Virus record (IMG/VR): IMGVR_UViG_3300029288_006559
Coordinates: 1-64,000 of that record
DNA length: 64,000 nucleotides
Source of the DNA: a virus
Lineage: Duplodnaviria; Caudoviricetes
Direction: 5' to 3' (one strand)
Made by a program: the position numbers and the translations under genes. Position 1 is the stretch's first letter. Each line of letters begins with the position of its first letter. The notes beneath the pieces were generated by a model that had not been told where the DNA came from, searched no databases, and was given only the letters and a program-made list of their open reading frames with translations. Positions 28,099-58,200 of this stretch are shown piece by piece.

Positions 28099-29094
28099 AT
28101 GATTCCGCAAAGAGTATTAGAATCTTTTACCGGTAAATATTGTTTAGTTACTGGGGGCACCGGCTTAATAGGTAGACAAGTTGTTGAGATCTTGTCAAAA
28201 GCTGGAGCCAATGTAGATGTTGTTTCTTTGGATTTTATTGATTTAGGTTTACCTAATGTAGAAACATATCGATGTGATCTTAGACAACCTGATGTTTGTC
28301 GAGATCTTGTTACTGGGTGTGATTACGTATTTCACTTGGCGGGTGTCAAGGGCTCTGTAGAAGTAACTAAATCAAAACCAGCTAGTTTTTTCGTTCCTTT
28401 GTTGCAGTTTAATACCAACGTTTTAGAAGCTTGCAAAGAGCTCAGAGTCGAAAAGGTGATATATACTAGTTCTATCGGAGCTTACGAAAGCGCAGAGGTG
28501 TTTGTAGAAGGAGATATTACGCAAGGACCTCCTATGGATCTTTTTCCCGGATGGGCCAAACGTATGGCGGAGCTGCAAATTCAAGCTTATAAAATACAAC
28601 ATGGTTTGAATAATTTTACAGTTGTTAGACCTTGCAACGTTTACGGACCGGGGGATAATTTTGATCCTGAAAATGCAATGTTTATACCTTCTCTTATGTC
28701 CAAAATTCATAGAGGAGATAACCCTGTTATGATCTGGGGAGATGGAACTGTTATTAGAGATTTTGCTTTTAGTAGAGATGTAGCTGAAGGAATTATTTTA
28801 GCTTTGTATTACCAACCCGATGTGCCTTATCTAAATTTAGGGAGTGGGGTGGGAGTTTCTGTAAAGGAGTTGGTAGAGACAATGAATAGAGTAGTTTCTT
28901 TTAATTATAAATTTGATATTACTAAACCTTCAGGATTTCCAAAAAGAGTTATGAATATTGAAAAAGCGATGAAGTTAATAGATTACAATCCTATAACTAC
29001 TCTTGAACAAGGATTGAGAGAAACATGGGAATGGTTTATAAAGAATGAAGAAGAATATAAACAAAGAAAAAATTATTTTTCTGAGGAGGAATAA
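28099..29094 (+). CDS. NAD-dependent NDP-sugar epimerase, Fcl-like (Tyr-less)
   Basis: TGGTGLIG, NVYGPGDNF, WGDG; PGWAK at the YxxxK position. Confidence 0.85.
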   Translation: MIPQRVLESFTGKYCLVTGGTGLIGRQVVEILSKAGANVDVVSLDFIDLGLPNVETYRCDLRQPDVCRDLVTGCDYVFHLAGVKGSVEVTKSKPASFFVPLLQFNTNVLEACKELRVEKVIYTSSIGAYESAEVFVEGDITQGPPMDLFPGWAKRMAELQIQAYKIQHGLNNFTVVRPCNVYGPGDNFDPENAMFIPSLMSKIHRGDNPVMIWGDGTVIRDFAFSRDVAEGIILALYYQPDVPYLNLGSGVGVSVKELVETMNRVVSFNYKFDITKPSGFPKRVMNIEKAMKLIDYNPITTLEQGLRETWEWFIKNEEEYKQRKNYFSEEE

Positions 29095-29097
29095 ATT

Positions 29098-29349
29098 ATG
29101 GAACCAGGAAAAAAGAGTTGGAAAGAATTTCAGGAAACAGGTTTGCTATGGTGGATTAATCGAATATTGCATACTTTTGGCTGGGCAATAACATTAGTTC
29201 AAATGGAAGACGGTACTGTTACAGAGGCTTATCCTGCAAGATGCAGATTTAGAGGTTTTGCATATGAGGATGAGGAAAAAGGTTTTAAGAGTGTATCTAA
29301 TTATATGGCTAGTGAAGCTGAGGAATTGAAGAAAGAAGCAAATTCTTAA
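29098..29349 (+). CDS. conserved phage hypothetical protein
   Basis: GAGGAGG RBS; GLLWWINRILHTFGWAI. Confidence 0.65.
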   Translation: MEPGKKSWKEFQETGLLWWINRILHTFGWAITLVQMEDGTVTEAYPARCRFRGFAYEDEEKGFKSVSNYMASEAEELKKEANS

Positions 29350-29360
29350 AAGGGAAAGTT

Positions 29361-29897
29361 ATGAAAATTATACCAACAAAATTTGAAAAGGCAAAGTTGA
29401 TTGAACTTCCTATATTTAGAGATTTTCGGGGAGATTACGTAGAAACTTATAATGAGAATTTTTATAAGGCTTTAGATGTACCTATGCCTTTTGTTCAGGA
29501 CAGTTTTTCTACATCCAGGAAAGATGTTTTAAGGGGGTTTCACGGGGATCCTTTAACATGGAAACTCATACAAGTAGTTTCAGGTGAAGTTTATGAGGTG
29601 ATAGTTGATTTGAATGAAAATAGTCCTACTTATCTAGAATGGGAAGCATTTATTATAGGAGAGAAAGATCGAAGACAGCTTCTAATCCCTCCAGGATTTG
29701 GTAATGCTATGTTGGCTTTAACGGATAATGTAGTTTATTACTATAAACAGACTACATATTATGGGCAGGCAAGACAATTTACTGTAAGATGGGATGATCC
29801 TACTTTGAAGGTTTTTTGGCCTATAGACAATCCCATATTATCAAAAAGGGATACTAAAGGGAAACAGGTTTATATTGGAGGAACAAAGCAAATATGA
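29361..29897 (+). CDS. rmlC: dTDP-4-dehydrorhamnose 3,5-epimerase (RmlC family)
   Basis: DFRG, VQDS.S.S, VLRGFH, IPPGFG, WDDP, LSKRD. Confidence 0.9.
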   Translation: MKIIPTKFEKAKLIELPIFRDFRGDYVETYNENFYKALDVPMPFVQDSFSTSRKDVLRGFHGDPLTWKLIQVVSGEVYEVIVDLNENSPTYLEWEAFIIGEKDRRQLLIPPGFGNAMLALTDNVVYYYKQTTYYGQARQFTVRWDDPTLKVFWPIDNPILSKRDTKGKQVYIGGTKQI

Positions 29898-30349: not shown

Positions 30350-30991
30350 ATGCTGACTGTTTTTTATACATATACTCAAACTTTAGGAAACGTTAAATAC
30401 GCTCCTTTAGATAGACCAACAGAAAGGAAGCTTCTCGCTGAATATGCAGTAGGTTCAGACAAAGCCTTTGAATTACTAGTTAATGCACACCTTCGCTTTG
30501 TTGTGTGGATGCTAAGGGATTATAAGATTCCTAATGATGTTGATATTATGGATGTCATTCAAGAAGCTAATATAGGCTTATTAGAAGGGATAAGAAGGTT
30601 TAAATTAACGTATAAGTGCAGGTTGTACACATATTGTTTTTACTGGATACGTTTCTATATCGGAAAAACTCTTACTTCTTTTGCAAAAATACATAAAGTA
30701 TTCGTTCCAATTCCGGAAGATGCTGAATATTTGCAAGATGAGGCAGAAGCACTACAAGCTGCTGATTATTATGAACAAACAGCAAGAGATATTGTTGAAC
30801 ATGCTCTAAGTTATTTAACAAAAAAAGAGAAAACAGTGTTAATTTTATTTTTTGGCCTTTCTTCTCCATACGAACCTAAAACCCTACAAGAAATTGGATC
30901 TATGATGCATATCAACTTAGAGCGCGTACGCCAAATAAAAGACAACGCGTTGAAAAAATTAAAGAAAGAAGATCTTGAAAATCTTATTTAA
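30350..30991 (+). CDS. sigma70-family RNA polymerase sigma factor (regions 2 and 4)
   Basis: AHLRFV, DVIQEANIGLL, TLQEIG...ERVRQI. Confidence 0.92.
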   Translation: MLTVFYTYTQTLGNVKYAPLDRPTERKLLAEYAVGSDKAFELLVNAHLRFVVWMLRDYKIPNDVDIMDVIQEANIGLLEGIRRFKLTYKCRLYTYCFYWIRFYIGKTLTSFAKIHKVFVPIPEDAEYLQDEAEALQAADYYEQTARDIVEHALSYLTKKEKTVLILFFGLSSPYEPKTLQEIGSMMHINLERVRQIKDNALKKLKKEDLENLI

Positions 30992-35044: not shown

Positions 35045-35284
35045 ATGGATACGAATCTACTTTCTACATTACCTCTTGGAGCTTCACAAGAGTTTATAGA
35101 TGGAATAAATAAGTGTTCTATTCCTGTGACGAATGAAGTAAGGCAACTGTTTAATGGGTTCACAGTTATATTAGATAATACATTTCCTCTTACATTAAAA
35201 GATGGAACTATTGTGGATGCAGTAATGTTAGGAGCTAACAGCTCAAGATGTTATTTTATAAGAGAAAAAAATGAGCTTATTTGA
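35045..35284 (+). CDS. hypothetical protein
   Basis: Coupled ORF. Confidence 0.5.
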   Translation: MDTNLLSTLPLGASQEFIDGINKCSIPVTNEVRQLFNGFTVILDNTFPLTLKDGTIVDAVMLGANSSRCYFIREKNELI

Positions 35285-35720
35285 ATTATATAGTAAAGTG
35301 GAGTATGAAGGTAAAATGGATGGGGAAGTTCTACCTCTTTGTAATGCTTTAAATGCTTTACCATTTATAAAAACTGTTAATAGTTGCTGTGGCCATGGCA
35401 GCGGCCCTCTTCGTATCTTTTTTACAGTTGGTGAAAGGAAAGAAGGACTGTTTTTTCTTACAAGATGTGTTGATTGCAGATATTGGAAGTATGGCTATTT
35501 ATGGAAATTAGAGTTAAGCGCTGGCGATGCTTGGGATGGAAAGAACCTACCTATAACTTATGTGTTGAGCAGCGGAGTTATTGTAGGAGATTTAGCTTAT
35601 GAACAAGCCCAATCTTTAATAAAAAATATGAATTTGCATATTAATCATAAGAGTTTTATGCAAGGATATGATTTAGAACTATCTAATTTTAAAGTAAGAA
35701 GAGTAATAGGAGAGAAGTAG
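35271..35720 (+). CDS. TYW3-like fold protein
   Basis: MDGEVLPLCNALN...TVNSCCGH resembles the Tyw3 D-x-x-I...IN...T-x-SSC-x-GR N-terminus. Confidence 0.45.
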   Translation: MSLFELYSKVEYEGKMDGEVLPLCNALNALPFIKTVNSCCGHGSGPLRIFFTVGERKEGLFFLTRCVDCRYWKYGYLWKLELSAGDAWDGKNLPITYVLSSGVIVGDLAYEQAQSLIKNMNLHINHKSFMQGYDLELSNFKVRRVIGEK

Positions 35721-35723
35721 AAT

Positions 35724-36389
35724 ATGACGCAAATAGAGCAAGTTCAGATTCCTATTTTATTACCTAAAAGAGGTAAAGGACATCAAGAAGTAATGGCTTC
35801 TTTTTCTGTTCTTACTTCTAAACCCATAGATCCTCTTACATTTATTCCTATTATAAATACATACGCTAATAAAACGTGTATTATAGTAGATACTGTAGAT
35901 ATGAGTAAACGTTTTTTAAAAACTTTATCATTAGATGATGTGTTCATAAGCATATCTTTTGCATATATGTTAGACAGAGTTTCATCTCAGTTATCTCCTA
36001 CGTTCTTTTCTTTACCTTGTTTCTATGAACGTAGTGTAGGGTTTTCAGATAAAAATAGTATTGCCATAGGAGTTAAGCTACCCATGCAGGCATTTCTAGG
36101 GAAACCTATTTCTTCATCTTTGACTGTTAAAATTGAACATCCTTCAAATGTCTTTTTTGAAGATATTGTGGATAGGGTGTATAAAACTTTAGGGGCTGTT
36201 TTATGCCCTGCGGTTGAGACAAAATCTTTAGATCAAAATCCTTGCTATACTCCCGAAGAAACTTTAAAAAAACTTCGGGGTGTATTCAAAGAGAAGAAAT
36301 TAGGAAAAGGAGGTTCTTTGCAGGTAGAAACTATGGATCTTTATCATATGTATAAATTAACATATACAACATCATGGAAAAACAATTAA
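35724..36389 (+). CDS. degenerate FolE2 (GTP cyclohydrolase IB)-like T-fold protein
   Basis: Colinear similarity to 44962..45897 without the CPCS, AHNQR and ESIH motifs. Confidence 0.6.
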   Translation: MTQIEQVQIPILLPKRGKGHQEVMASFSVLTSKPIDPLTFIPIINTYANKTCIIVDTVDMSKRFLKTLSLDDVFISISFAYMLDRVSSQLSPTFFSLPCFYERSVGFSDKNSIAIGVKLPMQAFLGKPISSSLTVKIEHPSNVFFEDIVDRVYKTLGAVLCPAVETKSLDQNPCYTPEETLKKLRGVFKEKKLGKGGSLQVETMDLYHMYKLTYTTSWKNN

Positions 36390-37174
36390 TGACATACGAT
36401 AAAGCTATTTTAAAATTTGGAACTGAGGCTAAGACTCCTAAAATGTCTTTAGGCGGATTATTGCTTTCTAGTGATGGTATATTCTATTCTTTACAAGGAG
36501 AAGGTCCTTCTATAGGACGGCCTGCTATTTTTATTCGTTTACATATGTGTAATTTACAATGTGATTGGACAAAGGCCGGTGGTGGAAGGTGTGATACATT
36601 CTATACCTGGGACAAAGATACCAAAGAATACTGGACATCTCATTTTTTTATGTCTTTTGAAGATATTTTAAAAGAGATTAAAAAATATTCCTGTAAAAGA
36701 ATTGTATTTACAGGAGGAGAGCCTCTGATTCAACAAAAACAAATTTTAGAATTTACGCAAGCATATCTTGATTCAGAGTATATTGTCGAAATAGAAACTA
36801 ATGGTACTATTGCTCCTTCTCGAGAGGTTCTTGCTGATCTTTCCCCCTTTTGTTTAAATTGTTCTCCAAAACTATCCTCAGCGGGAATGGAAAAGAAAGA
36901 TAGAATTAAGCCAGAAGTTTTACAGATTATAAATAACTATGAATCTTCTATTTTTAAATTCGTTGTGACCAGTATTGAAGATTTGGCGGAAATAGAAACC
37001 CTCGTGCAGGAACTTAAGCTACGATCAGACAAGATTGTTATAATGCCAGAAGGGGTAGATGTACAAACATTAACTAAGAGAATGCAAGAGCTAGCTGGCG
37101 TAGTAAAATTAAGGGGGTGGGCTATGATTCCCAGACTACAGATTTTTATTTGGGGGAATAAGAGAGGAGTGTAG
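36374..37174 (+). CDS. queE: 7-carboxy-7-deazaguanine synthase (radical SAM)
   Basis: IFYSLQGEG, CNLQC...CDT, TGGEP, IETNGT, SPKL, KFVV, PRLQ. Confidence 0.93.
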   Translation: MEKQLMTYDKAILKFGTEAKTPKMSLGGLLLSSDGIFYSLQGEGPSIGRPAIFIRLHMCNLQCDWTKAGGGRCDTFYTWDKDTKEYWTSHFFMSFEDILKEIKKYSCKRIVFTGGEPLIQQKQILEFTQAYLDSEYIVEIETNGTIAPSREVLADLSPFCLNCSPKLSSAGMEKKDRIKPEVLQIINNYESSIFKFVVTSIEDLAEIETLVQELKLRSDKIVIMPEGVDVQTLTKRMQELAGVVKLRGWAMIPRLQIFIWGNKRGV

Positions 37175-37175
37175 G

Positions 37176-37538
37176 ATGAATTTAGAGGAGGTTCGGCGAC
37201 AAGTTATTAGTGAATTAGATGCTACTTCCGGGGAGCAGGGGCAGGCACATGTTTTAGCCGCCGATGTCGTTCTTACTGCTTTACAAAGACTTGGTTACCG
37301 TATAGTTCCTGCTATGATTAGAGTAGAAGGTAGTGCTATTACAGATTTTCAGAGAGCTATTGCTCAACAATGTGCTTTAGTAAACATTACTTGCAATAAA
37401 CTACACACTTCTTTAGATGGTAAGAAAAGACCGTGCGGTAATCAAATGACTTACCAAGTAGAGGAACAAGATATAAACGGAGCTTCTATAATTCAACTTT
37501 TAATAGCAGATGGGTGGGTTATTATTCCACCTCAGTAG
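37176..37538 (+). CDS. hypothetical protein
   Basis: GAGGAG RBS. Confidence 0.6.
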   Translation: MNLEEVRRQVISELDATSGEQGQAHVLAADVVLTALQRLGYRIVPAMIRVEGSAITDFQRAIAQQCALVNITCNKLHTSLDGKKRPCGNQMTYQVEEQDINGASIIQLLIADGWVIIPPQ

Positions 37539-37901: not shown

Positions 37902-40550
37902 ATGTCTATTTCTTTAAAAGAAGTTAATATTTCTTTTACACCTTTTTGGTGTACCCTTTCTTACTCTCCTACTCCTTCACCAAACTTTTCTCGTGAGCTG
38001 TTAATAGCATTTCAGCAATTAGAACAAGAATTAGATGATGCACTAAAGTTTCATACAGAAGGATATTATTTTTCTCCCCAGTATCAGAGCGGGGGGTGGG
38101 ATGGATATACTCATCTCTATCATTTGAAAACACATCGGTTCAGGGCGGGAATGCTTTTAAAGGTGTTAGAGTTTTTAGAAGTTAAAAGCATCGGCGGAAC
38201 TGTATTTAATTTCCCCGATCCGCAAACTTTTTGCCAAAATAGTAATACCTATACTTTACGCCCTTATCAACTAAAAGCAGCACAAGATGTTTGTAAAAGA
38301 CGGTTTGGGATTTTACAAGCTCCTCCTCGAGCTGGTAAGACAAACATAATTATTGCTATTACAGATTCAGAAAGACGGTTTCCCGCCATATTGTTCTGCA
38401 GGAGTTTAGATTTAGCTTATCAAACTGTAGAAAGATTTAGAAACTTTTTACCATCTGTTTCCGTAGGTTTGGTTGGAGACGGTAAGTGCGATATTCAAGA
38501 TATTACAATTATGACAGTGCAAAGCGCTTTTGAGGCTTTTAATCAGCGTCCGAAAAATTTCGATGTAGCAGAAACTGATAAAGCCTTAGTGCGAGATGTA
38601 GAAAAAGCTTCTGTAAGAAAACTTATTACCGATGCGGAGATTGTTTTCTACGATGAGTGTTTTCCAAAAGGTACATTAGTTCATACTGATGTAGATACAG
38701 TAGTTCCTATAGAAGCAATTTATGAAAATCAAGATATTACTCATGTTCTTTCATATAATAAAGAAACACGAACATTAGAAAGAAAGAGAATTCTTAAAAA
38801 AACGAAGAGAGAAATTTCTAAGGATAGACTGTTTTTAGTAGAAACGTCTTTACATAAAGGAGGAAAAAAATATAAAGTTAGGTGTACTGATACTCATAAG
38901 TTTTGGACAAACAATAGAGGGTATGTAGAAGCAAAAGATTTGTGTTGTAATGATAGTTTAAAAGTGTTAACTACCGGGAATATTCAAACAACTTCTTCTT
39001 ATTATCATGTACCTGTTTTTTGCAAGAGGTGTGGTACACGTTTGAGTAGTTATAAAAAGCTAAAACAGCATAATTACAAATGTCATACGAAAGAAGGGCA
39101 GAGAAAAACGCAGGAACATGCACGTAAAATGTGTATGGAAAGGGAAAAGAACCGAACCTGGAGAAAAAATTTAAAATTAATGGGGTTAAGACGAAGAGGT
39201 AAAAATAATACTGTTTTTAGACATCCTGATACTATTAAAAAGATTAGAGAAACTCACCGTCGACTTTTTAGGAATATGCCGAAAAAAGAACAGTTAATGC
39301 AAATTAAGAGGTTTATGAATGCTCCGATACATAAAAGAAATAAGATTAATCGTCCAGAAAAAACTATTATTTCTTTTAAATTTAAAGGGCTTGAATATAC
39401 TGCAAAAGGTTATCATAATGATAGAAAAGAAACTGCTATAGAATTAATATTAGGTGGTAGAGAAAGATATAAGTTTCCTGATTTTACTTATAAAAAAAGA
39501 AAAAAAGTTATAGAGGTAGCAGATTTTGAATATTGGCATACACGAAAAGAAATGAACAAAGTTAAATACGCTTATAAAAAAGCAGGTTGGGATTGTCTTG
39601 TTTTAAATGCAAAGCAGGTTGTCGAGTTTCCAGATAAGATAAAGCGTAAAATTGTAAAATTTTTGTACAATCATAATGTTTCTCCTATTAAGGTAGGTTA
39701 TTCTAAAATAGGCTTTTATAAACCTACCGTTACTGTTTATAATCTAGAAATAGAAGATAATCATAATTATTTTGCTAACGGATTTCTTGTAAGTAATTGC
39801 CACCACTCTTCTGCAAAAACGAGTAGGTATATACTTGATAGATGCAAAAACGCAGTAATGCGTATCGGTGTAAGTGCTACTCCTTTTGAAGGGGATTCTT
39901 CTGATTGGTTGGTAGAAGAATCTATTGGGCCAGTTATTCATAAGATATCTTACTCTGAGCTTGTAAAAGAGGGGTATATTTTACGCCCTTACATTTATAT
40001 GTATAAACTTCCTCCAATGAATTTAAAGGGGGATGCATATCGGACTGTTTACAAGAAAGCAGTAACTCATAATGATTATCTTACTGGTTTAATAAAGAAA
40101 ATAGTAGATACGTTAACTTCTCAAGGTAATTCCGTCGTTGTGCAAACAGAGTTCATTGAACATACAAAACTTCTTGCTGAAGTTACCGGTGGAGTAATGC
40201 TTACCGGTCAGGAACGAGACATGTCTGTGCGTACAGATGTATTGCAAAGGTTGCGCAGTAAAGAAATACTTTGTGTTGTATCTACTCTTTTTGAAGAAGG
40301 TTTAGATGTTGCTTCCCTTGATTATACAATTAATGTGGCGGGGGGTTTAAGTAATATTGGAACATTGCAAAGAATGCGTTCATTAACAGCGTCTGAAGGA
40401 AAGGAAACCTGTGGTATTATTGATTTTTATCATCAATGCGAATATCTTGAAAGACATAGCAAGATAAGAAGAGATATTTACACTTCTGAGGAGGAATTTG
40501 TTTTTGAGATGAGAGATGTAAGTAAGTTAAAATTAGAGGAGATAGAATAA
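37902..40550 (+). CDS. SF2 (UvsW/ResIII-like) helicase with intein
   Basis: LRPYQ, PPRAGKT, DE[intein]CHH, GVSATP, EEGLDV, QRMR. Confidence 0.9.
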   Translation: MSISLKEVNISFTPFWCTLSYSPTPSPNFSRELLIAFQQLEQELDDALKFHTEGYYFSPQYQSGGWDGYTHLYHLKTHRFRAGMLLKVLEFLEVKSIGGTVFNFPDPQTFCQNSNTYTLRPYQLKAAQDVCKRRFGILQAPPRAGKTNIIIAITDSERRFPAILFCRSLDLAYQTVERFRNFLPSVSVGLVGDGKCDIQDITIMTVQSAFEAFNQRPKNFDVAETDKALVRDVEKASVRKLITDAEIVFYDECFPKGTLVHTDVDTVVPIEAIYENQDITHVLSYNKETRTLERKRILKKTKREISKDRLFLVETSLHKGGKKYKVRCTDTHKFWTNNRGYVEAKDLCCNDSLKVLTTGNIQTTSSYYHVPVFCKRCGTRLSSYKKLKQHNYKCHTKEGQRKTQEHARKMCMEREKNRTWRKNLKLMGLRRRGKNNTVFRHPDTIKKIRETHRRLFRNMPKKEQLMQIKRFMNAPIHKRNKINRPEKTIISFKFKGLEYTAKGYHNDRKETAIELILGGRERYKFPDFTYKKRKKVIEVADFEYWHTRKEMNKVKYAYKKAGWDCLVLNAKQVVEFPDKIKRKIVKFLYNHNVSPIKVGYSKIGFYKPTVTVYNLEIEDNHNYFANGFLVSNCHHSSAKTSRYILDRCKNAVMRIGVSATPFEGDSSDWLVEESIGPVIHKISYSELVKEGYILRPYIYMYKLPPMNLKGDAYRTVYKKAVTHNDYLTGLIKKIVDTLTSQGNSVVVQTEFIEHTKLLAEVTGGVMLTGQERDMSVRTDVLQRLRSKEILCVVSTLFEEGLDVASLDYTINVAGGLSNIGTLQRMRSLTASEGKETCGIIDFYHQCEYLERHSKIRRDIYTSEEEFVFEMRDVSKLKLEEIE
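38658..39797 (+). mobile_element. intein (380 aa) in the helicase DECH box, with C2H2 finger and Vsr/PD-(D/E)XK-like endonuclease
   Basis: Starts CFPKGT, ends FLVSN|C; CKRC...HNYKCH; FPDF...VIEV...YWH. Confidence 0.88.
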
Positions 40551-44961: not shown

Positions 44962-45897
44962 ATGTCAGAACTTCCAGATATTCAAAATCAAAAAGACGAG
45001 CGTGGTATCGCTATTGATAGAGTTGGTGTAACAGGAATTATATTTCCGACCAAAGTAAGGGTTAAAAGAACGAAGATGGATCAATCTCTTCTTACTCTTC
45101 AACAGGAAACCGCTGCTAAGGTAGATTTATACGTTGGACTTCCTCACGATTATAGAGGAGCTAACCTTTCAAGATTTATGCAATGTTTGCTTTACTTCCA
45201 CCTCCAAGGAGCTGGATGTTTATCTATTGATACATTGCCTGAGCTTTTAAAAAAACTTCAAGAAGAAATGAAAAGTGAAGATGCTTATGCAAGGATAGAA
45301 TTTAATTACTTTGCAAACAAACTTTCTCCTGTAACAGAACTTTCTGCTCCTCAGGCTTACAAGTGTGCGTTTACGGGGATAATGAAAAAGGATGTGTATA
45401 GATTTATCTTGGAAGTGAATGTAATCGCTGCCTCTTTATGTCCTTGCAGTAAAGAGATGAGCCTGTTAGAGAATTTAACTGAAATTGTTAAGGAAAAGGA
45501 TACAGCGACAATCATAGGTGAAGGGGGGCCTCCAATGCTAGCAGGAAAGTCCTTACTCTCCCAGGTTGGTATGGGAGCCCATAATCAACGTTCTTTAATA
45601 CGTGTACAATTAACGTCGAAAGATAATCAAATAATATGGATAGAAGATGTTATTGACGCTATTGAAAAATCAGCTTCTGCTCCTACATACCCTGTATTGA
45701 AAAGGCCAGATGAAAAGTTTGTGACTGAACAAGCATATAACAATGCTAAGTTTAGTGAAGATATTTTAAGAGATTTGCAAAAGAATATAGAAGCTTTACC
45801 TAATGTAGACTCTTGGTCTTTAAAGGTAGAGAACGAAGAGTCTATACATCCTTATAATGTTACATGTTATCAAAATTCTGATAATTGGAATCATTGA
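44962..45897 (+). CDS. folE2: GTP cyclohydrolase I type B
   Basis: LPDIQ, IDRVGV, LCPCSK, AHNQRS, LKRPDEK.VTE.AY.N.KFSED, EESIH. Confidence 0.95.
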   Translation: MSELPDIQNQKDERGIAIDRVGVTGIIFPTKVRVKRTKMDQSLLTLQQETAAKVDLYVGLPHDYRGANLSRFMQCLLYFHLQGAGCLSIDTLPELLKKLQEEMKSEDAYARIEFNYFANKLSPVTELSAPQAYKCAFTGIMKKDVYRFILEVNVIAASLCPCSKEMSLLENLTEIVKEKDTATIIGEGGPPMLAGKSLLSQVGMGAHNQRSLIRVQLTSKDNQIIWIEDVIDAIEKSASAPTYPVLKRPDEKFVTEQAYNNAKFSEDILRDLQKNIEALPNVDSWSLKVENEESIHPYNVTCYQNSDNWNH

Positions 45898-46999: not shown

Positions 47000-47971
47000 A
47001 TGAGTGACATCTCAGTAGAAATTGATAAATTAGCTGAACAATGTTGTGAAAAAATGACTTGGAGTGCCAGAACAGAATATTTTCGTTATCAGAAGCGGGT
47101 GCGAGAAGAAGGTAAATGTATTAAGAAAAGATATGAGGTGGGTAATTATTATTATAAAGGTAAACGGCGTGGGCAATTGCGCGATGTATATGAAGTAAAG
47201 GGAGATCTTTTTAATCAATTATGGAAAAAATTATACCCTTACGCAATTACATCAATTATGAATTCTGGTATTGCTAAAGACAGGGACGATGCAGAGTGTA
47301 TTGCATCTGATATGAAAGCTCAAGCTTTTTATGTTCTGCGATCTTTCGGATCCGTTGTTCGTGGCAAGAAGCGTAATCAGAAATTTTCAGGTGTGTTTCG
47401 TACTATTGTAATAAATGTTCTTCAGACCACCGCAAGACGTAGGGGTAGAGTTTCAAAACATAAAATTGAAGAACATAAAATTACAGAATATAGATGTCCT
47501 GAATGTGGTAGTGAACTATATCAGCATCCAAATCTAGCATTTAAAGATATTTTAATTTGTCCTCATTGTGATAATAAAGAATTTTCAAAGTTCGGGAAAG
47601 GTTATAGTACTCGTATTTTATTTGATGCTGTTAGTATCAATTCTCCTGTTAATAGCGATGAAAACGGGAATGGAATGACTTTAGAGGATAAGATTCCCAG
47701 CAGTTCTATTGTAAACAATTTTCCCTTGATAATAGATGTCCCCGATAAATTTCAATCATACATTTTTGATTTATTAAAAGGGAAATCTATAGTTGACGTA
47801 GCAAAACAGAATGGGTACCGGACGAAGGAAAGAATTGCAAAGTTTAGGTCTGATTTGCAAGAAGCAATGGGGCCTGTTTTGCAAGAATATTTTCCGAAAA
47901 AATTACATTATGATGAAAAAAAAGAAATGTGGAAAGTAATAAAATCTATTAAAAAGGAGAAACATATATGA
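47000..47971 (+). CDS. divergent sigma-factor-like protein with zinc-ribbon insert
   Basis: Region-2-like helices, CPECG...CPHC, SINSPV...TLEDKI, C-terminal HTH (GKSIVDVAK). Confidence 0.5.
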   Translation: MSDISVEIDKLAEQCCEKMTWSARTEYFRYQKRVREEGKCIKKRYEVGNYYYKGKRRGQLRDVYEVKGDLFNQLWKKLYPYAITSIMNSGIAKDRDDAECIASDMKAQAFYVLRSFGSVVRGKKRNQKFSGVFRTIVINVLQTTARRRGRVSKHKIEEHKITEYRCPECGSELYQHPNLAFKDILICPHCDNKEFSKFGKGYSTRILFDAVSINSPVNSDENGNGMTLEDKIPSSSIVNNFPLIIDVPDKFQSYIFDLLKGKSIVDVAKQNGYRTKERIAKFRSDLQEAMGPVLQEYFPKKLHYDEKKEMWKVIKSIKKEKHI

Positions 47972-50743: not shown

Positions 50744-52429
50744 ATGAAAAAAGCTATTATTATTCTTTCTGGAGGGATGGACTCCGCAGTACTATTAGCT
50801 AAGGTTTTAAAAGAGGAGTATGAAGTAGAAACCTTAAGCTTTGACTATGGTTCTAAACACAACGATGAAGAGTATAAACACGCATTAATGCTTTGCGAAT
50901 ATTATAAGGTTAAAAATCAGAGAATTGCTCTTCCGTTTGTGAATGACCTATTCAAATCTGACTTACTAAAAAGCGGTGGAGATATTCCCGAAGGGCACTA
51001 TGAAGATGAGAGTATGCAACGTACTGTAGTGCCAAATCGTAATGCTATTATGCTTTCCATAGCAGTAGGCTATGCTGAATCTGTTGGAGCTGGAGTTGTA
51101 TTTTATGGCCCTCATGCAGGAGACCACGCAATATACGATGATTGTCGCGATACTTTTGTAATACCTTTTGATAAAGCTATGCAAGCTGCTTCTGGAGGTA
51201 AAGTTGTAATAAAGGCTCCTTTTTTAGCATTGACAAAACGCGATATAGGTTTGATTGGAAAAGAGCTTGATGTTCCTTTTGAGAAGACCTATTCTTGTTA
51301 CAAGGGCGGAGAAAAGCATTGCGGGAAATGTGTAGCGAAAGATACAGAAATTCTTATGGGGGATTATAGTAAAAAATTAATTCAAGATATTGTAGTTGGG
51401 GATATTATTTTAAGCTACGACAAGAAAAAGAAATTAATTATTCCTAACAAAGTTGTGCAGGTACATTCTAACGGAAAGCAGGTTATTTATAATGCTAAGT
51501 TTGGAAGAAACATTCTTAGGTGTACTGATTCTCATAAGATTGCAAGATACACTAGTAGCAAAAATGTAGAGTTTGCTGTAGCAAAGAAGTTTTCTTCTTA
51601 TAAGCATTCAAACGCTTTTGTTGTTCCTTTTTGGAAAGATTTAACGCCTGTTGATTTAAAAGCATTCTGGACAGGGTGGTTATCCGGAGTTGTTGACGGA
51701 GACGGAAGTTTTGCGTCGCCGAAGAGCTACCCCAGAGAAAGATTTTTAGGAGTTCCTGTCAAGGAGGTAATTTTTGCAAAATTGATAAAAGAAAACGTAA
51801 AAAAATATTTTAATATAGATATGAGATTTGTAGATCATAAATCCTCCAGTATTGTTAAAGCACATAGTAAAATGATAAACGTTTGTTGTAGCATTACAAG
51901 AGATGTAAAAGCAGTTGAGAATCAGATTAAGTCATATGAAAAGACACTTGATTTTTGGAAAGGGTGGTTAAGAGGTATAATTGATACCGATGGGGGTATA
52001 GATAGATTTTCCTATAGAATTTATCAAAGCAAGCCTGTGATAGTGGCTAAGATTCGTCGAGCATTAAAGCAGTTAAATTTACCTTTTACTGAATATGTCC
52101 AGACAAAAGAAGATCATAATAGTAATTCCAAAAATAAATTACATGCTAATTACGATGCATATACTTTTGTTCTTTCTAGTGGGCATTTAACTAATGTAAT
52201 GACGGGTAATATTAAAACATTTAAGTATAAAGAGTTTAGTTTCTTATTAAAATTTTTAACTCGTCCCGTCTTTGATTCCTTAAAGGTAATAGGGGAAGAC
52301 GATACTTATGATTTAACAACAGAAATAGGTAATTACTTTGCTGATGGCTTCCTAATTCACAATTGTGGCACGTGTACAGAACGAAAAGAAGCTTTAGCAG
52401 GGTTTGATCCAACACAATACCTTGCGTAG
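50744..52429 (+). CDS. queC: 7-cyano-7-deazaguanine synthase with intein
   Basis: LSGGMDS, FDYG, VPNRN, DCR, SCY...HCGK[intein]CGTC..R. Confidence 0.95.
   Translation: MKKAIIILSGGMDSAVLLAKVLKEEYEVETLSFDYGSKHNDEEYKHALMLCEYYKVKNQRIALPFVNDLFKSDLLKSGGDIPEGHYEDESMQRTVVPNRNAIMLSIAVGYAESVGAGVVFYGPHAGDHAIYDDCRDTFVIPFDKAMQAASGGKVVIKAPFLALTKRDIGLIGKELDVPFEKTYSCYKGGEKHCGKCVAKDTEILMGDYSKKLIQDIVVGDIILSYDKKKKLIIPNKVVQVHSNGKQVIYNAKFGRNILRCTDSHKIARYTSSKNVEFAVAKKFSSYKHSNAFVVPFWKDLTPVDLKAFWTGWLSGVVDGDGSFASPKSYPRERFLGVPVKEVIFAKLIKENVKKYFNIDMRFVDHKSSSIVKAHSKMINVCCSITRDVKAVENQIKSYEKTLDFWKGWLRGIIDTDGGIDRFSYRIYQSKPVIVAKIRRALKQLNLPFTEYVQTKEDHNSNSKNKLHANYDAYTFVLSSGHLTNVMTGNIKTFKYKEFSFLLKFLTRPVFDSLKVIGEDDTYDLTTEIGNYFADGFLIHNCGTCTERKEALAGFDPTQYLA
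51329..52363 (+). mobile_element. intein (345 aa) with LAGLIDADG endonuclease in QueC
   Basis: Starts CVAKDT, ends FLIHN|C; WLSGVVDGDG and WLRGIIDTDG. Confidence 0.93.
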
Positions 52430-53822: not shown

Positions 53823-54638
53823 ATGAGAATTGCACACGAAGCTCCTCTTTCTCTTATGAAATATGTTAAACAAGTTACTGACTATGATTATGCCCTAGCC
53901 TCTTTGTTTGATAATGTTTCAGGATATTATGAATATTTTAAGCAATCAAAAAAAGAGGGGCGTAAGATCCTTCTAGACAATGGTGTCTTCGAAGAAGGCG
54001 TTGCGATGAAAGATAAAGATTATGTTAATTGGATTAAAGATCTCCAACCAGATGAGTATATAGTTCCTGATGTAATGGGAGATATGCATAGAACTGTGGT
54101 TAACTTTCAAAAATGGTTATTAGAGTATCAGGATCTTCCAGGAAAGAAAATAGGGGTAGTTCATGGATATACTATAGAAGAGTTTATAGAATGTTATAAG
54201 TACATGTCTACATATGCTGATAAAATAGCTATAAATTTTTCTCAATCTTTTTATCAAGAAATTTATCCTCAACAACAAGGTATGAGTAAAGAAATAAAGC
54301 AAGCACAAGGAAGATTGTGGATTACGGGGCATTTACATTCTCTAGGTATTTGGAACGCAGAAAAACCACATCACTTGTTAGGAGCTTCTGTTCCTAGCGA
54401 ATTTAGTGCGTATGTAGAAAGACACCCTTCATTTGTATACAAGTCTATAGAATCTATTGATACAAGTAACCCCATTGTATATGCTATAGTAAAAGGAAGA
54501 TATCCCAAACATATAAGTGGGGTTGTAACAAAAGAAACTACTAAGGTAAAGGATTTGATAACTACTCCTTACTCTGATAAGCTTTTGATAGACGTTATAG
54601 CTAATGTTATTCAATTTAGAACACAAAATAACCTCTAA
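53823..54638 (+). CDS. DpdA-like / TGT-fold deazaguanine DNA transglycosylase
   Basis: ILLDNGVFE, VPDV, GVVHG, HHLLG, SIDTS; queC/queE/folE2 context. Confidence 0.7.
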   Translation: MRIAHEAPLSLMKYVKQVTDYDYALASLFDNVSGYYEYFKQSKKEGRKILLDNGVFEEGVAMKDKDYVNWIKDLQPDEYIVPDVMGDMHRTVVNFQKWLLEYQDLPGKKIGVVHGYTIEEFIECYKYMSTYADKIAINFSQSFYQEIYPQQQGMSKEIKQAQGRLWITGHLHSLGIWNAEKPHHLLGASVPSEFSAYVERHPSFVYKSIESIDTSNPIVYAIVKGRYPKHISGVVTKETTKVKDLITTPYSDKLLIDVIANVIQFRTQNNL

Positions 54639-54641
54639 TAA

Positions 54642-55202
54642 ATGCAAATTGAAGATCTTTCTACTTGTAAAAAGAAATATTTCATAATATACGCAGACCC
54701 TCCTTGGTCGTATAAAAGAAAAGGAGGGCCAAAACATATTGGTACTGCACACCAAACATACAAATCAACTATGTCTGATGAAGAAATTTATAATCTTCCT
54801 ATCAAACATATTGCTGCAAAAAATGCTATTTTGTTTTTATGGATTACTTTTCCTAAATTAAAAGAAGGTCTTATTACACTTGAGAAGTGGGGTTTTGAAT
54901 ATAAGACAGTAGGATTTGTGTGGGTAAAAGTAAACAAAAAACAATGGACATTGTTTTGGGGTTCAGGTCATTATACTCGGGCTAATGCTGAAGTATGTTT
55001 AATAGGAATAAAAGGGCATCCTAAAATAAAGAGACATGATGTACATTCTGTTGTAATTGATCGTAATGTAAAACATTCCCGAAAACCTGTTGTAGTAAGA
55101 GAAAGAATTGTCAAACTTTGCGGTAACTTATCCCGTATAGAATTATTTGCAACCCAAGAGGTAGAAAAATGGGATTGCTTCGGAAATGAGATTGAAAAAT
55201 GA
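54642..55202 (+). CDS. MT-A70 family adenine methyltransferase
   Basis: IIYADPPW, LFLW, WGFEY, WVK, HSRKP, IELFA. Confidence 0.93.
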   Translation: MQIEDLSTCKKKYFIIYADPPWSYKRKGGPKHIGTAHQTYKSTMSDEEIYNLPIKHIAAKNAILFLWITFPKLKEGLITLEKWGFEYKTVGFVWVKVNKKQWTLFWGSGHYTRANAEVCLIGIKGHPKIKRHDVHSVVIDRNVKHSRKPVVVRERIVKLCGNLSRIELFATQEVEKWDCFGNEIEK

Positions 55203-58200
55203 TACAAGAACGACCTAAAGATTGTCAAGGATGTGATCTTTGTGCAACACGGAAAAAAGTAGTTCAATCTGTTTTCCCAGATAACGTAGAAGTAATTTTA
55301 GTAGGAGAAGCACCTGGTTGCTTCCCCGCAGGTACCTTTGTGTACACCCCTACTGGAATTGTGGAAATTCAAAATTTGCAGGAAGGGGATGTTGTTTTAT
55401 CTTCTCAAGGGACTCCACAAATAGTAAAAAAGTGTTTTAAAAGAGAATCTAAGTCTTTAGTAAATTTGAAATTATACGGAGGGTATTCTCTAACTGCTAC
55501 TTGCAATCACTCTATTTTAGTTGTACCTCATAAAAGTTGTGATTTTAACGGACATGGTAATCATTGTTATCCTTGTTACACTAAAGTGTGTAAGTATAGT
55601 TATTATAATGGTTATAAAAAAGTTTGGAAAAAAACAGAAAATATAACTTTAAATGATTGGGTAATTATTCCTAAGATAAAATCTATTGTTAAGGAGCATT
55701 GTTTTGATTTAAAAGAATTTTGTGAAGAGAAAACAAATAGAGGTATTCCTGATGAAATATTACTAGACGCAGATTTAGCGTATGTATTAGGTTGGTACAT
55801 GGCAGAAGGATGTTTGTTATATAAGCCTAATGTAAAAAATCAACAAATTGCTTATGGCATATCTTTTTGTTTAGGAAAAAATGATATTAAATATGTTAAA
55901 AAGATTAGAGAAATTCTTTTTACAAAATTTAAAATATCTTCAAAATATAATGCGCAAACTTTTTGTTTACATTTTCATTCAAAAAAAGTAGCTCAGTGGA
56001 TAGAATCTTTGTTTGGGGAAAGAGTTAAAGCTCCATATAAGAGAATTCCGAAAGTGTTTTTTACTTCTAGTTTTGATGTAAAAGCCTCTTTTTTATTTGG
56101 TTGGTATTTGGGAGATGGTAATCATCCCACGAAAGATAGTAGGCCTTATTCTATAAGTAGTTCTTCTAAGTTTGCTATTTATGATGCTTCTATTTTATTT
56201 CTTAGTTTAGGTGTTTTGCCTACTATAAGAGTTGAAGAAGTAGTAGGGAAGATGACACCTAAAAAAATTAAATTTAATTTTGATATATATCGTATTTGTA
56301 TTAAAAATGCAGATATAGTGAAACTTAAATGGAATCTTCCTACACATAATAGAGTTCAAAGGCGCGTTTTTTGGGAAGACGAAGATAATTTTTATATAAA
56401 AATATGTAAAATTCAAAAAGTTCAAAAGATTACTACTGTTTATAATATTGAAACCGAAGATAATACTTATTGTACTCCTGTAATTGTTCATAATAGCGAA
56501 GAAGACAGGTTAGGTGTTCCATTTGTTGGAAGAGCAGGTCAACTCCTTGATAGGGTTTTAAAAGAAGTACAGATTGATAGAAAAGAAATTGGTATTACTA
56601 ATGTAGTAGGGTGTCGCCCTCCTGAAAATGCTAAACCTACTGTTAAGCAAGCTAAAGCGTGTTGGCCGTTTGTTGATAAAGAGTTAAGACAAATAAAACC
56701 GAAGCTTTTAGTTCCTATGGGGGATACCGCTATGAATAAAATTATTCCTGGAATGGGTAGAATTACCAAGATTCGAGGCCAGATATTTCATAGCGATGAA
56801 TATAATTGTACTGTTATACCTACTTTACATCCATCTTATGTTTTGAGAAACGAAATAGAGCTTCTGCCTCAAATTAGAGAAGACCTACGTAAAGTTTACG
56901 CTTTTATGCAAGGAACTTTAGACCAAAGCCGCTCACCTGTAGAGTATTGTTCTGTAGAAACGCAAAAACAGTTTGATTGGCTTATGGAACAACTTAATGA
57001 ACAACCAGAATGGGCTTGTGATGCTGAAACTACAGGATATGATTGGCAAAAAGATGAAGTTTTTATGGTTTCTTTTTCTTGGCAAGAAAATACCGCAGTA
57101 TTTATAGATTTTAGAAATGAATTTTTTGTAAAAAATCAGGATTACGTTTGGAAAAAATTGGGAGAAGCTTTTGCTAATAGTAGTAAGAAAATTTTTCATA
57201 ATGGTTCTTTTGATATAGAATTTTTTATGATGAAAGGATGTTATGTAAATAATTACTATTTTGATACTTTATTAGCTCACCATCTTGTAAATGAAAATGA
57301 TTTTCACGGATTAGAAGTTCTCGCTGCACAGTATACTGATATGGCAGGATATGAGTTACCTTTATTGCAGTATGTAAAACAGAATAAAATTGCAAATTAT
57401 TCTGAGATCCCAAAAGATATTTTATATACCTACTCTCCTGCGGATGCAGATGTTACTTTTCGTTGTTATAAAAAGCTTTTACCTCTTATATACGAACAAG
57501 GTCTTGATAGAGTGATGTTTACTATTACTATGCCAGCTCAGATTTTATTGATAATGACAGAGTTTTGGGGAGTATCTATTGATGTTCCTTACTTGAAGAG
57601 AACACTTGTTAAGTATAATCAAATGATCAAAGAACAAGAAGACATTATACAAACTACTCCTCAAGTAATTGAATATGAGCAAGAAAAAAAAGATAAAATT
57701 TGGACGGAGTTTAGAAAAAAATATAATAACAGTTCTAGTACTGTAAAGAATAGATTTCCTACATTTGATTCATATGTTCAATCTCGGAAGGCAGATGATT
57801 TAGATTATTCTTTTAATCCTAATTCTCATTTACAATTAAAAGAATTGCTAATTGGTAGAATGAAGCTTCCTATTATTAAGTATACTAAAAAAGGAAAAAA
57901 AGCAACTACGAATCCTAGTTTAGATGCTGAAGTATTAGAAGTTTATGCTACGAAATACAAGCACAAGTTTTGCGTTGCTTTATCCCGTGTGAGTACTTTA
58001 AATCATCTTAAAAGCACTTTTTTAGATGGTATTAAAGAAAGGCTAGATGGAAGTAACAAAGTTCACACAGATTATAGGGTTTGGGGAACAAAAACAGGGC
58101 GTATTTCTTCTAAGGATCCTAATCTAAATAATATTCCTAGGACAGGTACTGCAGATGATATTAAAGATATCTTTTGTGCCGACCCAGGGGAGTGGATGTT

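What the first reader, a model, noticed from the sequence alone, without database searches (positions are those of the whole stretch)
35724..36389. Apparently catalytically dead FolE2 paralogue coupled to queE
Seen: colinear matches to the intact FolE2. VFISISFAYMLDRVS aligns with AYARIEFNYFANKLS, VFFEDIVDRVYKTLGAVLCP with IWIEDVIDAIEKSASAPTYP, NPCYTPEETLKKL with NAKFSEDILRDL, and SLQVETMDLYHMY with SLKVENEESIHPY. The metal and substrate motifs CPCS, HNQR and ESIH are deleted or altered. The gene overlaps the queE start, the position where queD (also T-fold) often lies. Inference: a scaffold or heteromeric subunit of FolE2, or a neofunctionalised T-fold protein standing in for QueD.
Basis: partly seen in the sequence, partly recalled or inferred. 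Interest (0 to 1): 0.7.

Follow-up and report, generated by a model that had tools for sequence, protein, structure and literature searches.

The report
FolE2-derived T-fold protein coupled to QueE
An uncultured large phage that replaces the guanine in its DNA with a 7-deazaguanine carries, just before its queE gene, a conserved copy-like relative of GTP cyclohydrolase FolE2 that has lost the enzyme's metal site; it is probably an undescribed fifth part of that DNA-modification pathway.

Summary
ORF 35724-36389 (221 aa) has no Pfam, NCBIfam or PHROG hit. It is nevertheless a true FolE2 (GTP cyclohydrolase IB) homologue: profile-profile probability 98.3%, E 1e-14; AlphaFold pLDDT 92.6; Z 22.8 to solved FolE2 over 219 of 221 residues. 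All three FolE2 metal ligands, the essential second Cys and the His of ESIH are deleted or replaced, so it is not a cyclohydrolase.

It is not a decaying remnant. About 44 clusters at 50% identity exist, all 170-322 aa. I found none in cultured phages, one-per-species prokaryote genomes or UniProt viral structure models. The family has its own near-invariant polar residues. Strain variants carry mostly synonymous changes and no indels.

In all six distinct contexts recovered the gene lies directly upstream of queE. Every sufficiently complete record also encodes intact FolE2, canonical QueD (CxxxHGH), QueC and a DpdA3-type DNA transglycosylase. The "QueD stand-in" reading is therefore not supported. 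The FolE2-heteromer reading could not be tested.

My best reading is a neofunctionalised T-fold protein that binds a pterin or deazapurine intermediate and works at or next to the QueE step. Its chemistry is unknown.

The scan also flagged this stretch from an overlapping window of the same genome; no note on other DNA describes this family.

The parts
35724..36389 (+). FolE2-derived bimodular T-fold protein (221 aa), member of an unnamed virus-only family; lacks the FolE2 metal site
35709..35715 (+). AGGAGAG ribosome-binding site of the T-fold gene; the upstream ORF's stop TAG is at 35718-35720
   Evidence: Relatives' contigs diverge from the window exactly at the ATG 35724 (table 7).
36374..37174 (+). 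QueE-like radical SAM enzyme (7-carboxy-7-deazaguanine synthase); likely true start is ATG 36389; cluster motif Cx3Cx9C
   Evidence: phrog_2076 E 6.5e-58; below NCBIfam QueE cut-offs; Pfam Radical_SAM; start codon
37176..37538 (+). Small protein (120 aa) with conserved C-terminal GWVIIP, directly after queE here and in relatives G001 and G002; function unknown; possibly part of the module
   Evidence: no Pfam or PHROG hit
44962..45897 (+). Intact FolE2 (GTP cyclohydrolase IB) with CPCS, HNQR, RPDE and ESIH motifs
   Evidence: PF02649 E 1.8e-73; NCBIfam NF010200 224.9 bits, over its cut-off of 215
50744..52429 (+). QueC (preQ0 synthase) interrupted by an intein (Hint + LAGLIDADG)
53823..54638 (+). 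DpdA3-type DNA guanine transglycosylase
   Evidence: [quoted passage not shown] These three are the DpdA3 phages of PMC10516641. phrog_19058 E 2e-46.

Best explanation
The gene encodes a minimal bimodular T-fold protein that descends from GTP cyclohydrolase IB (FolE2). It has lost the FolE2 transition-metal site and the other cyclohydrolase residues, so it does not open GTP. It is kept under purifying selection as a fifth, dedicated component of a DpdA3-type 7-deazaguanine DNA-modification gene set (FolE2, QueD, QueE, QueC, DpdA3) in a deep clade of uncultured large phages from landfill, wastewater and groundwater. It is co-translated with QueE. It retains acidic residues shared with FolE2 (Glu146/Asp147, Asp168, Glu/Asp179, Asp205) and has family-specific basic and aromatic residues (Arg16, Lys18, Arg85, Tyr207, Tyr210). 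From this I infer that it still binds a guanine-derived ring (pterin or 7-deazapurine), perhaps with a phosphate or carboxylate group, at subunit interfaces as other T-fold proteins do. The mechanism I commit to, as inference: it binds QueE's labile substrate 6-carboxy-tetrahydropterin (CPH4) or its product CDG and hands it to or takes it from QueE. That would raise flux through the slow radical-SAM step, which matters because DpdA3 phages replace all genomic G. Shown: homology, fold, loss of catalytic residues, conservation, gene order and pathway co-occurrence. Inferred: ligand, partner and effect. I put the general claim (a functional, non-cyclohydrolase deazaguanine-pathway component) at about 0.6 and the specific hand-over mechanism at about 0.3.
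For: Homology and fold: hhalign probability 98.3%, E 1.2e-14; HMM against PDB, 2r5r E 5.8e-11; AF2 pLDDT 92.6, two beta-beta-alpha-alpha-beta-beta modules; Z 22.8, rmsd 2.9 A, 219 of 221 residues aligned to FolE2 8tcc/8g6c, against Z about 15 for uricases; ESM Atlas nearest clusters are all PF02649. Loss of cyclohydrolase residues: with residue roles taken from PMC11573665. Conservation: 44 clusters at 50% identity, E down to 1e-42; Glu146 and Pro162 in 40 of 40, Asp205 39, Asp147 38, Arg16 37, Tyr207 37, Arg85 36 plus 4 Lys. Strain variants show 5 synonymous and 2 non-synonymous changes and no indels. Gene order: directly upstream of queE in the window, L004, L005, G001, G003 and G002/G004, at 24-66% identity. 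In this phage two ORFs are inserted between the RNR gene and the T-fold gene, while the T-fold/queE junction stays tight. Pathway co-occurrence: FolE2, QueC and DpdA3-like genes in every record, QueD in all but a 9%-complete fragment.
Against: No precedent is known to me for a T-fold accessory of QueE. The family-bearing records all belong to one syntenic phage clade (RNR, T-fold, QueE, small protein, helicase). Adjacency and co-occurrence may therefore reflect inherited gene order rather than function. No T-fold/QueE fusion exists among 1.84 billion representatives. No ligand docking or multimer modelling could be done. The strongly conserved polar set looks as much like a catalytic site as a binding site.
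Confidence: 0.55

Rival explanations
1. Tailoring enzyme. The protein is a new cofactor-free or Mg-dependent T-fold enzyme that converts CDG, ADG or preQ0 (free or in DNA) into a different 7-deazaguanine. It would thereby set the final base that DpdA3 puts in this clade's DNA.
For: Each characterised DpdA3 phage has a distinct extra enzyme that sets the final base. One of these, DpdL, is a paralogue of a pathway T-fold enzyme (QueD) with an altered catalytic motif (PMC10516641). The family has a dense set of near-invariant Asp, Glu, Arg and Tyr residues. No QueF, Gat-QueC or other known tailoring gene was found. T-fold enzymes without a transition metal do exist (QueF, QueF-L, FolB, uricase) and match the model's single modules at Z about 10.
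Against: The gene sits with queE, not with queC or dpdA3. The only conserved Cys (Cys99) is Ser or Val in 3 of 40 members and aligns with a non-catalytic FolE2 Cys, which argues against QueF-type thioimide chemistry. No cofactor motif is recognisable. No reaction can be proposed from sequence.
Confidence: 0.25
2. Pseudoenzyme partner of FolE2. The protein co-assembles with the phage FolE2 into a mixed T-fold barrel, or caps it, and regulates or stabilises GTP cyclohydrolase activity.
For: It keeps the full FolE2 T-fold core that forms the barrel interfaces. FolE2 rather than FolE is present in all five family-bearing records. Four further family members share an exact contig length with a FolE2 homologue: 83275, 71832, 12203 and 14425.
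Against: It is co-translated with queE, while folE2 lies 8.6 kb away here. It lacks the Glu that FolE2 donates in trans to a neighbour's metal site (Glu251 column is variable). It also lacks FolE2's extra N-terminal segment and helices. Co-occurrence is confounded by common descent. The family profile scores short cellular FolE2 higher than the phage's own FolE2, so a recent in-phage duplication is not indicated.
Confidence: 0.12
3. Stand-in for QueD: makes CPH4 from dihydroneopterin triphosphate.
Against: Canonical QueD with CxxxHGH is present in this genome and in relatives. The family has no His triad for zinc. There is no PF01242 hit. Structural similarity to QueD/PTPS is only at single-module level, Z 6-7.
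Confidence: 0.03
4. Function unrelated to deazaguanine (other nucleotide or pterin binding, regulation, or counter-defence). The position next to queE is inherited synteny only.
For: All contexts come from one syntenic clade, where the RNR gene is also the usual upstream neighbour. The ESM Atlas shows FolE2-fold domains fused to HTH regulators in Myxococcota, so the fold can serve as a sensor.
Against: The junction with queE, from a few bases of overlap to a 40-nt gap, persists down to 24% identity, while other genes are inserted or rearranged around it. T-fold proteins bind purines and pterins, which are the chemistry of this pathway.
Confidence: 0.1

Closest known systems
FolE2 / GTP cyclohydrolase IB (PF02649; PDB 2r5r, 3d2o, 5k95, 8g6c)
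   Same: Same bimodular T-fold, colinear over the whole length (Z 22.8; hhalign 98.3%). Shared Glu-Asp at the start of the first helix of module 2, the Tyr-Pro turn, Asp of RPD, an acidic residue at the ESIH Glu position, and the C-terminal Trp.
   Different: It lacks the about 20-residue N-terminal segment, the GxxMSRF motif, and the CPCS and HNQR motifs with the loop between them. The RPDE Glu, the His of ESIH and the extra helices are also gone. It is 221 aa against 257-311 aa. It is not detected by the Pfam or NCBIfam models. It cannot bind the catalytic metal as FolE2 does.
DpdL (QueD paralogue, proposed CDG decarboxylase of Cellulophaga phage phiST; PMC10516641)
   Same: A paralogue of a preQ0-pathway T-fold enzyme with an altered catalytic motif, found in DpdA3-type phage deazaguanine clusters. 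Function predicted, not shown.
   Different: DpdL derives from QueD, is unimodular, keeps the zinc-binding His residues and occurs in phages without QueC. This family derives from FolE2, is bimodular, has lost the metal ligands and occurs together with QueC.
QueF / QueF-L (T-fold nitrile reductase / amidinotransferase acting on preQ0)
   Same: T-fold proteins of deazaguanine metabolism that need no transition metal. Single modules superpose at Z about 10 (QueF-L) and 7.8 (QueF).
   Different: No QueF motif. No PF14489 hit. The conserved Cys is not invariant and lies in a different strand. Similarity is at fold level only.
QueD2 (low-zinc paralogue of QueD, Acinetobacter; PMC9894224)
   Same: An example of a T-fold paralogue kept beside the canonical enzyme in queuosine precursor synthesis.
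   Different: QueD2 keeps QueD chemistry and its metal site. Here the metal site is gone and the parent enzyme is FolE2.

Membership tests
FolE2 / GTP cyclohydrolase IB (EC 3.5.4.16) | Bimodular T-fold, colinear with solved FolE2 | tested here: met
   AF2 pLDDT 92.6. Z 22.8, 219 of 221 residues aligned. hhalign probability 98.3%.
FolE2 / GTP cyclohydrolase IB (EC 3.5.4.16) | Passes the curated family models (Pfam PF02649, NCBIfam NF010200) | tested here: not met
   No hit at E 0.1 in Pfam or E 0.01 in NCBIfam. The six-frame PF02649 search of the genome finds only 44971-45861.
FolE2 / GTP cyclohydrolase IB (EC 3.5.4.16) | Metal ligands Cys (CPCS), His (HNQR) and Glu (RPDE), i.e. Cys154/His166/Glu208 of B. 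pseudomallei (PMC11573665) | tested here: not met
   The Cys is deleted and the His column has no conserved residue. The Glu column is Lys, Arg or other residues.
FolE2 / GTP cyclohydrolase IB (EC 3.5.4.16) | Second Cys of CPCS, and Glu and His of ESIH (proposed base and conserved His) | tested here: not met
   The Cys is deleted. The Glu is replaced by Asp205 (39 of 40). The His column is mostly Asn.
FolE2 / GTP cyclohydrolase IB (EC 3.5.4.16) | GTP cyclohydrolase activity | not testable with these tools
   Needs an enzyme assay or complementation of an E. coli folE mutant.
QueD / PTPS (PF01242) | Unimodular T-fold with a zinc His triad and the CxxxHGH motif | tested here: not met
   No PF01242 hit. 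No such motif in the alignment. The genome's real QueD, with CFSPHGH, is at 77601-78050.
QueF / QueF-L | Invariant catalytic Cys forming a thioimide, and the QueF motif (for QueF) | tested here: inconclusive
   No PF14489 hit in the genome. Cys99 is present in 37 of 40 members, Ser or Val in 3. Fold match is to a single module only, Z about 8-10.
DpdL | QueD paralogue with LxxxHRHxF | tested here: not met
   Different parent family and no such motif.
DpdA3-type phage 7-deazaguanine DNA-modification system (context, not the protein itself) | DpdA3 transglycosylase plus the FolE/FolE2, QueD and QueE core | tested here: met
   The same set is found in relatives.

The most novel reading that the evidence does not exclude
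The family is a new enzyme that evolved from GTP cyclohydrolase IB by losing its metal site. It would catalyse an undescribed step on a pterin or 7-deazapurine, giving this phage clade a 7-deazaguanine base not yet seen in DNA or a new way to feed QueE.
Probability: 0.3. Interest if true: 0.8.

Novelty: new variant of a known kind. Interest (0 to 1): 0.58.

Why it matters
Phage 7-deazaguanine DNA modifications are an active field, and each new accessory gene found so far (DpdL, DpdM, DpdN) has pointed to a new base or new chemistry. This family belongs to no curated protein family, and I found it in no cultured phage. It is nevertheless conserved in a widespread clade of large environmental phages whose DpdA3 type of transglycosylase is linked to complete replacement of G.

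The family gives a concrete, testable candidate for a fifth pathway function. It is also a clean example of a T-fold enzyme that shed its metal site yet stayed under selection. If it proves to be only a helper or a silent subunit, the finding is of modest, specialist interest.

Tried and rejected
Direct family scans of the target found nothing:
- Pfam, NCBIfam and PHROGs gave no hit.
- The only Pfam line, SPV1_VP10 at E 0.0094 and below its cut-off, was rejected as chance.

Searches for the family in other collections:
- tblastn of the target and three divergent members against 50,697 GenBank phage records found no match.
- Foldseek against BFVD viral models found nothing at E <= 0.001.
- A scan of GTDB representative genomes found none.
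- IMG/VR scans with A1, P0172, P0028 and P0023 found none.
- The first DNA pattern (EDxxDHxQK) gave 6 chance hits only.
- The metagenome scan gave only two short contigs.

Other attempts:
- Thirteen loci with more distant QueE genes (33-40% identity) carry neither the family nor FolE2 nearby. Two of those QueE genes also have an expanded cluster loop. The T-fold protein is therefore not a general QueE companion and is not tied to that loop.
Most of the roughly 44 clusters could therefore not be placed in context, and exact contig-length matches were used as a weak substitute.
- The papers of Sankaran 2009 and Paranagama 2017 are not held. The role of Ng Glu216 as the ring-anchoring residue rests on my memory.
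- The pI of family members ranges from 5.2 to 9.3 and is not informative about DNA binding.
- No RNA holder was listed among sequencing runs.
- I considered the 323-aa protein at 47000-47971 as a DpdA candidate. I rejected it because it looks like a zinc-ribbon/HTH regulator.
- I considered whether the phage FolE2 is an MptA-type enzyme. I rejected this because it passes the FolE2 equivalog cut-off and not the MptA one.

Full report
**What is there.** The window is the first 64 kb of a 134,292-bp IMG/VR virus record, estimated 73% complete by CheckV. ORF 35724-36389 (+) encodes 221 aa. It is preceded by an AGGAGAG ribosome-binding site. It ends in a TAA that overlaps the start of a QueE-like radical-SAM gene. 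Pfam, NCBIfam and PHROGs do not recognise the protein.

**Is it really FolE2-like?** The window holds an intact FolE2 at 44962-45897. It scores PF02649 E 1.8e-73 and passes the NCBIfam FolE2 equivalog cut-off. The evidence for homology builds up as follows:
- The target has relatives: 6 at 51-66% identity, and 44 clusters at 50% identity in a library of 1.84 billion representatives. All are 170-322 aa, and none is fused to QueE or anything recognisable.
- A 40-sequence alignment (A2) against a 26-sequence FolE2 alignment (A4) gives hhalign probability 98.3%, E 1.2e-14, colinear over the full length.
- As an HMM, A2 hits the solved FolE2 proteins 2r5r (E 5.8e-11) and 3d2o (E 2.2e-6). It also hits all 120 FolE2 homologues tested.
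- AlphaFold2 with A2 gives pLDDT 92.6 and pTM 0.88, with two beta-beta-alpha-alpha-beta-beta modules.
- VIA-align gives Z 22.8, rmsd 2.9 A, 219 of 221 residues aligned to FolE2 (8tcc, 8g6c). Uricases score Z about 15 and unimodular T-folds (FolB, QueF-L, GCH-I) about 10.
- An earlier shallow model already gave Foldseek E 1.7e-9 and Z 18.9 to 2r5r.
- The ESM Atlas neighbours are all PF02649 clusters.

The T-fold and the FolE2 ancestry are therefore established.

**Is it catalytically dead?** PMC11573665 gives the FolE2 site for B. pseudomallei:
- metal ligands Cys154 and His166, plus Glu208 from the adjacent barrel;
- a conserved, S-nitrosylated Cys156;
- Glu250 as the proposed base;
- a conserved His253.

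By motif and spacing these correspond to Cys160, His207, Glu251, Cys162, Glu293 and His296 of the phage FolE2. The numbering of 3d2o confirms His159, Glu201 and Glu216 for N. gonorrhoeae.

I mapped FolE2 near-invariant columns onto the family:
- Only 5 of 58 are kept: Pro10, Phe79, Glu146, Asp147 and Asp168.
- There are a few conservative swaps: Lys35 to Arg16, Lys120 to Arg85, Asp267 to Glu/Asp179, and Glu293 to Asp205.
- The N-terminal D-Q-D-R segment, GxxMSRF, CPCS and HNQR have no conserved counterpart. Their residues are deleted or fall in variable columns.
- The Glu251 column is variable.

GTP cyclohydrolase activity can be excluded with good confidence. "Dead" is correct only in that sense.

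**Is it a remnant?** No. Across sequences as low as 22-25% identical, the following are kept:
- Glu146 and Pro162 in 40 of 40;
- Asp205 in 39, Pro120 in 39, Asp147 in 38, Gly19 in 38, Arg16 in 37, Cys99 in 37, Tyr207 in 37;
- Arg85 in 36 with 4 Lys, and Asp150 in 36 with 4 Glu.

The phage recurs in landfill, wastewater, groundwater and sediment metagenomes from many studies. A strain variant, laid from runs of two studies, has 7 substitutions in the gene. Five are synonymous and two (A163V, Q200R) fall in variable columns. There are no indels. The same variant changes queE's first ATG (36374) to CTG. queE therefore most likely starts at ATG 36389, giving a TAATG stop-start overlap.

**Context.** I recovered the family gene in these contexts:

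| Context | Identity to target | Junction with queE |
|---|---|---|
| Window | - | 1- or 16-nt overlap |
| L004 | 66% | 2-nt gap |
| L005 | 38% | overlap |
| G001 (71.9 kb) | 32% | 22-nt gap |
| G003 (44.9 kb) | 25% | 15-nt gap |
| G002, about the same as G004 (about 130 kb) | 24% | 40-nt gap |

In every case queE follows directly. The usual order is sigma factor, class II RNR, T-fold, QueE, a small protein ending in GWVIIP, then a UvsW-like helicase. In this window two extra ORFs (79 and 149 aa) sit between the RNR gene and the T-fold gene, yet the T-fold/queE junction is unchanged.

All these records belong to one deeply diverged syntenic clade: about 44 shared genes at 27-58% identity between G000 and G001. 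The contexts are therefore not fully independent.

**The pathway around it.**
- The genome encodes FolE2 and QueE.
- QueC is interrupted by an intein.
- A canonical QueD with CFSPHGH lies at 77601-78050, outside the window.
- At 53823-54638 there is a protein 42%, 38% and 24% identical to the DNA guanine transglycosylases of Flavobacterium phage immuto, Campylobacter phage CP220 and Cellulophaga phage phiST.
- These are the DpdA3 subfamily, which PMC10516641 links to complete replacement of G.
- No QueF or Pfam-type TGT is present.
- G001, G002/G004 and G003 also have FolE2, QueC and a DpdA3-like gene. QueD is present in all but the 9%-complete fragment G003.
- Four further family members share an exact contig length with a FolE2 homologue.

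The T-fold protein is thus an addition to a complete preQ0 pathway, not a replacement for one of its enzymes. This removes the QueD stand-in idea.

**What it probably does.** T-fold proteins bind purines and pterins at subunit interfaces (PMC5699537). The family keeps acidic positions it shares with FolE2 and adds conserved Arg, Lys and Tyr residues. Its stop-start coupling to queE is the most stable feature of its neighbourhood.

I therefore read it as a ligand-binding T-fold protein of the deazaguanine pathway that acts at or next to the QueE step. The most likely role is handling CPH4 or CDG for QueE.

The main rival is a tailoring enzyme that sets the final base, by analogy with DpdL, a QueD paralogue with an altered motif. 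A QueF-like thioimide mechanism is unlikely, because the only conserved Cys is Ser or Val in 3 of 40 members and aligns with a non-catalytic FolE2 Cys.

A FolE2 pseudo-subunit remains possible but could not be tested. It is not favoured by the gene's position or by the loss of the trans-acting Glu.

**Novelty.** I found no paper describing a FolE2-like paralogue beside queE. The family is absent from the searched collections of cultured phages, one-per-species prokaryote genomes and UniProt viral structure models. It is a new, unnamed family within a known superfamily and a known type of system. I class it as a new variant of a known kind.

**Limits.**
- No multimer modelling or model coordinates were available.
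- The two key FolE2 structure papers are not held.

Noticed in passing
window 50744-52429: QueC is interrupted after about residue 198 by an intein (Hint plus LAGLIDADG homing-endonuclease domains). The relatives' QueC genes (238-300 aa frames) lack it.
   Followed up: partly
window 37902-40550: The UvsW-like helicase (882 aa) carries an intein of about 370 aa. The G001 homologue is 485 aa without it.
   Followed up: partly
window 36374-37174; L025 10701-11459; L038 1553-2302; L041 101-850: The QueE of this clade has an expanded radical-SAM cluster motif instead of the usual Cx3Cx2C: Cx3Cx9C here and in L041, Cx3Cx7C in G001, Cx3Cx6C in G002. It scores below all NCBIfam QueE cut-offs.
   Followed up: partly
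window 37176-37538: A small protein ending in GWVIIP follows queE here and in G001 and G002. It has no family hit and may belong to the same module.
   Followed up: no
window 35045-35720: Two ORFs (79 and 149 aa) lie between the RNR gene and the T-fold gene only in this phage. The 149-aa one, flagged elsewhere as 'TYW3-like', has no Pfam, NCBIfam or PHROG hit. It is absent from the same position in G001, G002 and G003.
   Followed up: partly
window 54642-55202: An MT-A70 family adenine methyltransferase (PF05063, E 6e-30) starts 4 nt after the DpdA3 gene, so a second DNA modification is likely.
   Followed up: no
window 28099-29897: A nucleotide-sugar epimerase and a dTDP-4-dehydrorhamnose 3,5-epimerase-like gene lie just upstream of the phage sigma factor (30350-30991).
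   Followed up: no
protein P0053: A FolE2 82% identical to the phage's is labelled as coming from a Methanogenium MAG (20.8-kb contig). This is probably a mis-binned viral contig, but it could hint at the host.
   Followed up: no
window 55199-59029: The family A DNA polymerase is 1276 aa. Only residues from about 430 on match (about 30%) the polymerases of SPO1-like Bacillus phages. The phage has no close cultured relative.
   Followed up: no
ESM Atlas: A cluster of 201 Myxococcota proteins fuses a FolE2-fold domain to HTH domains. This suggests the fold is also used as a ligand sensor.
   Followed up: no
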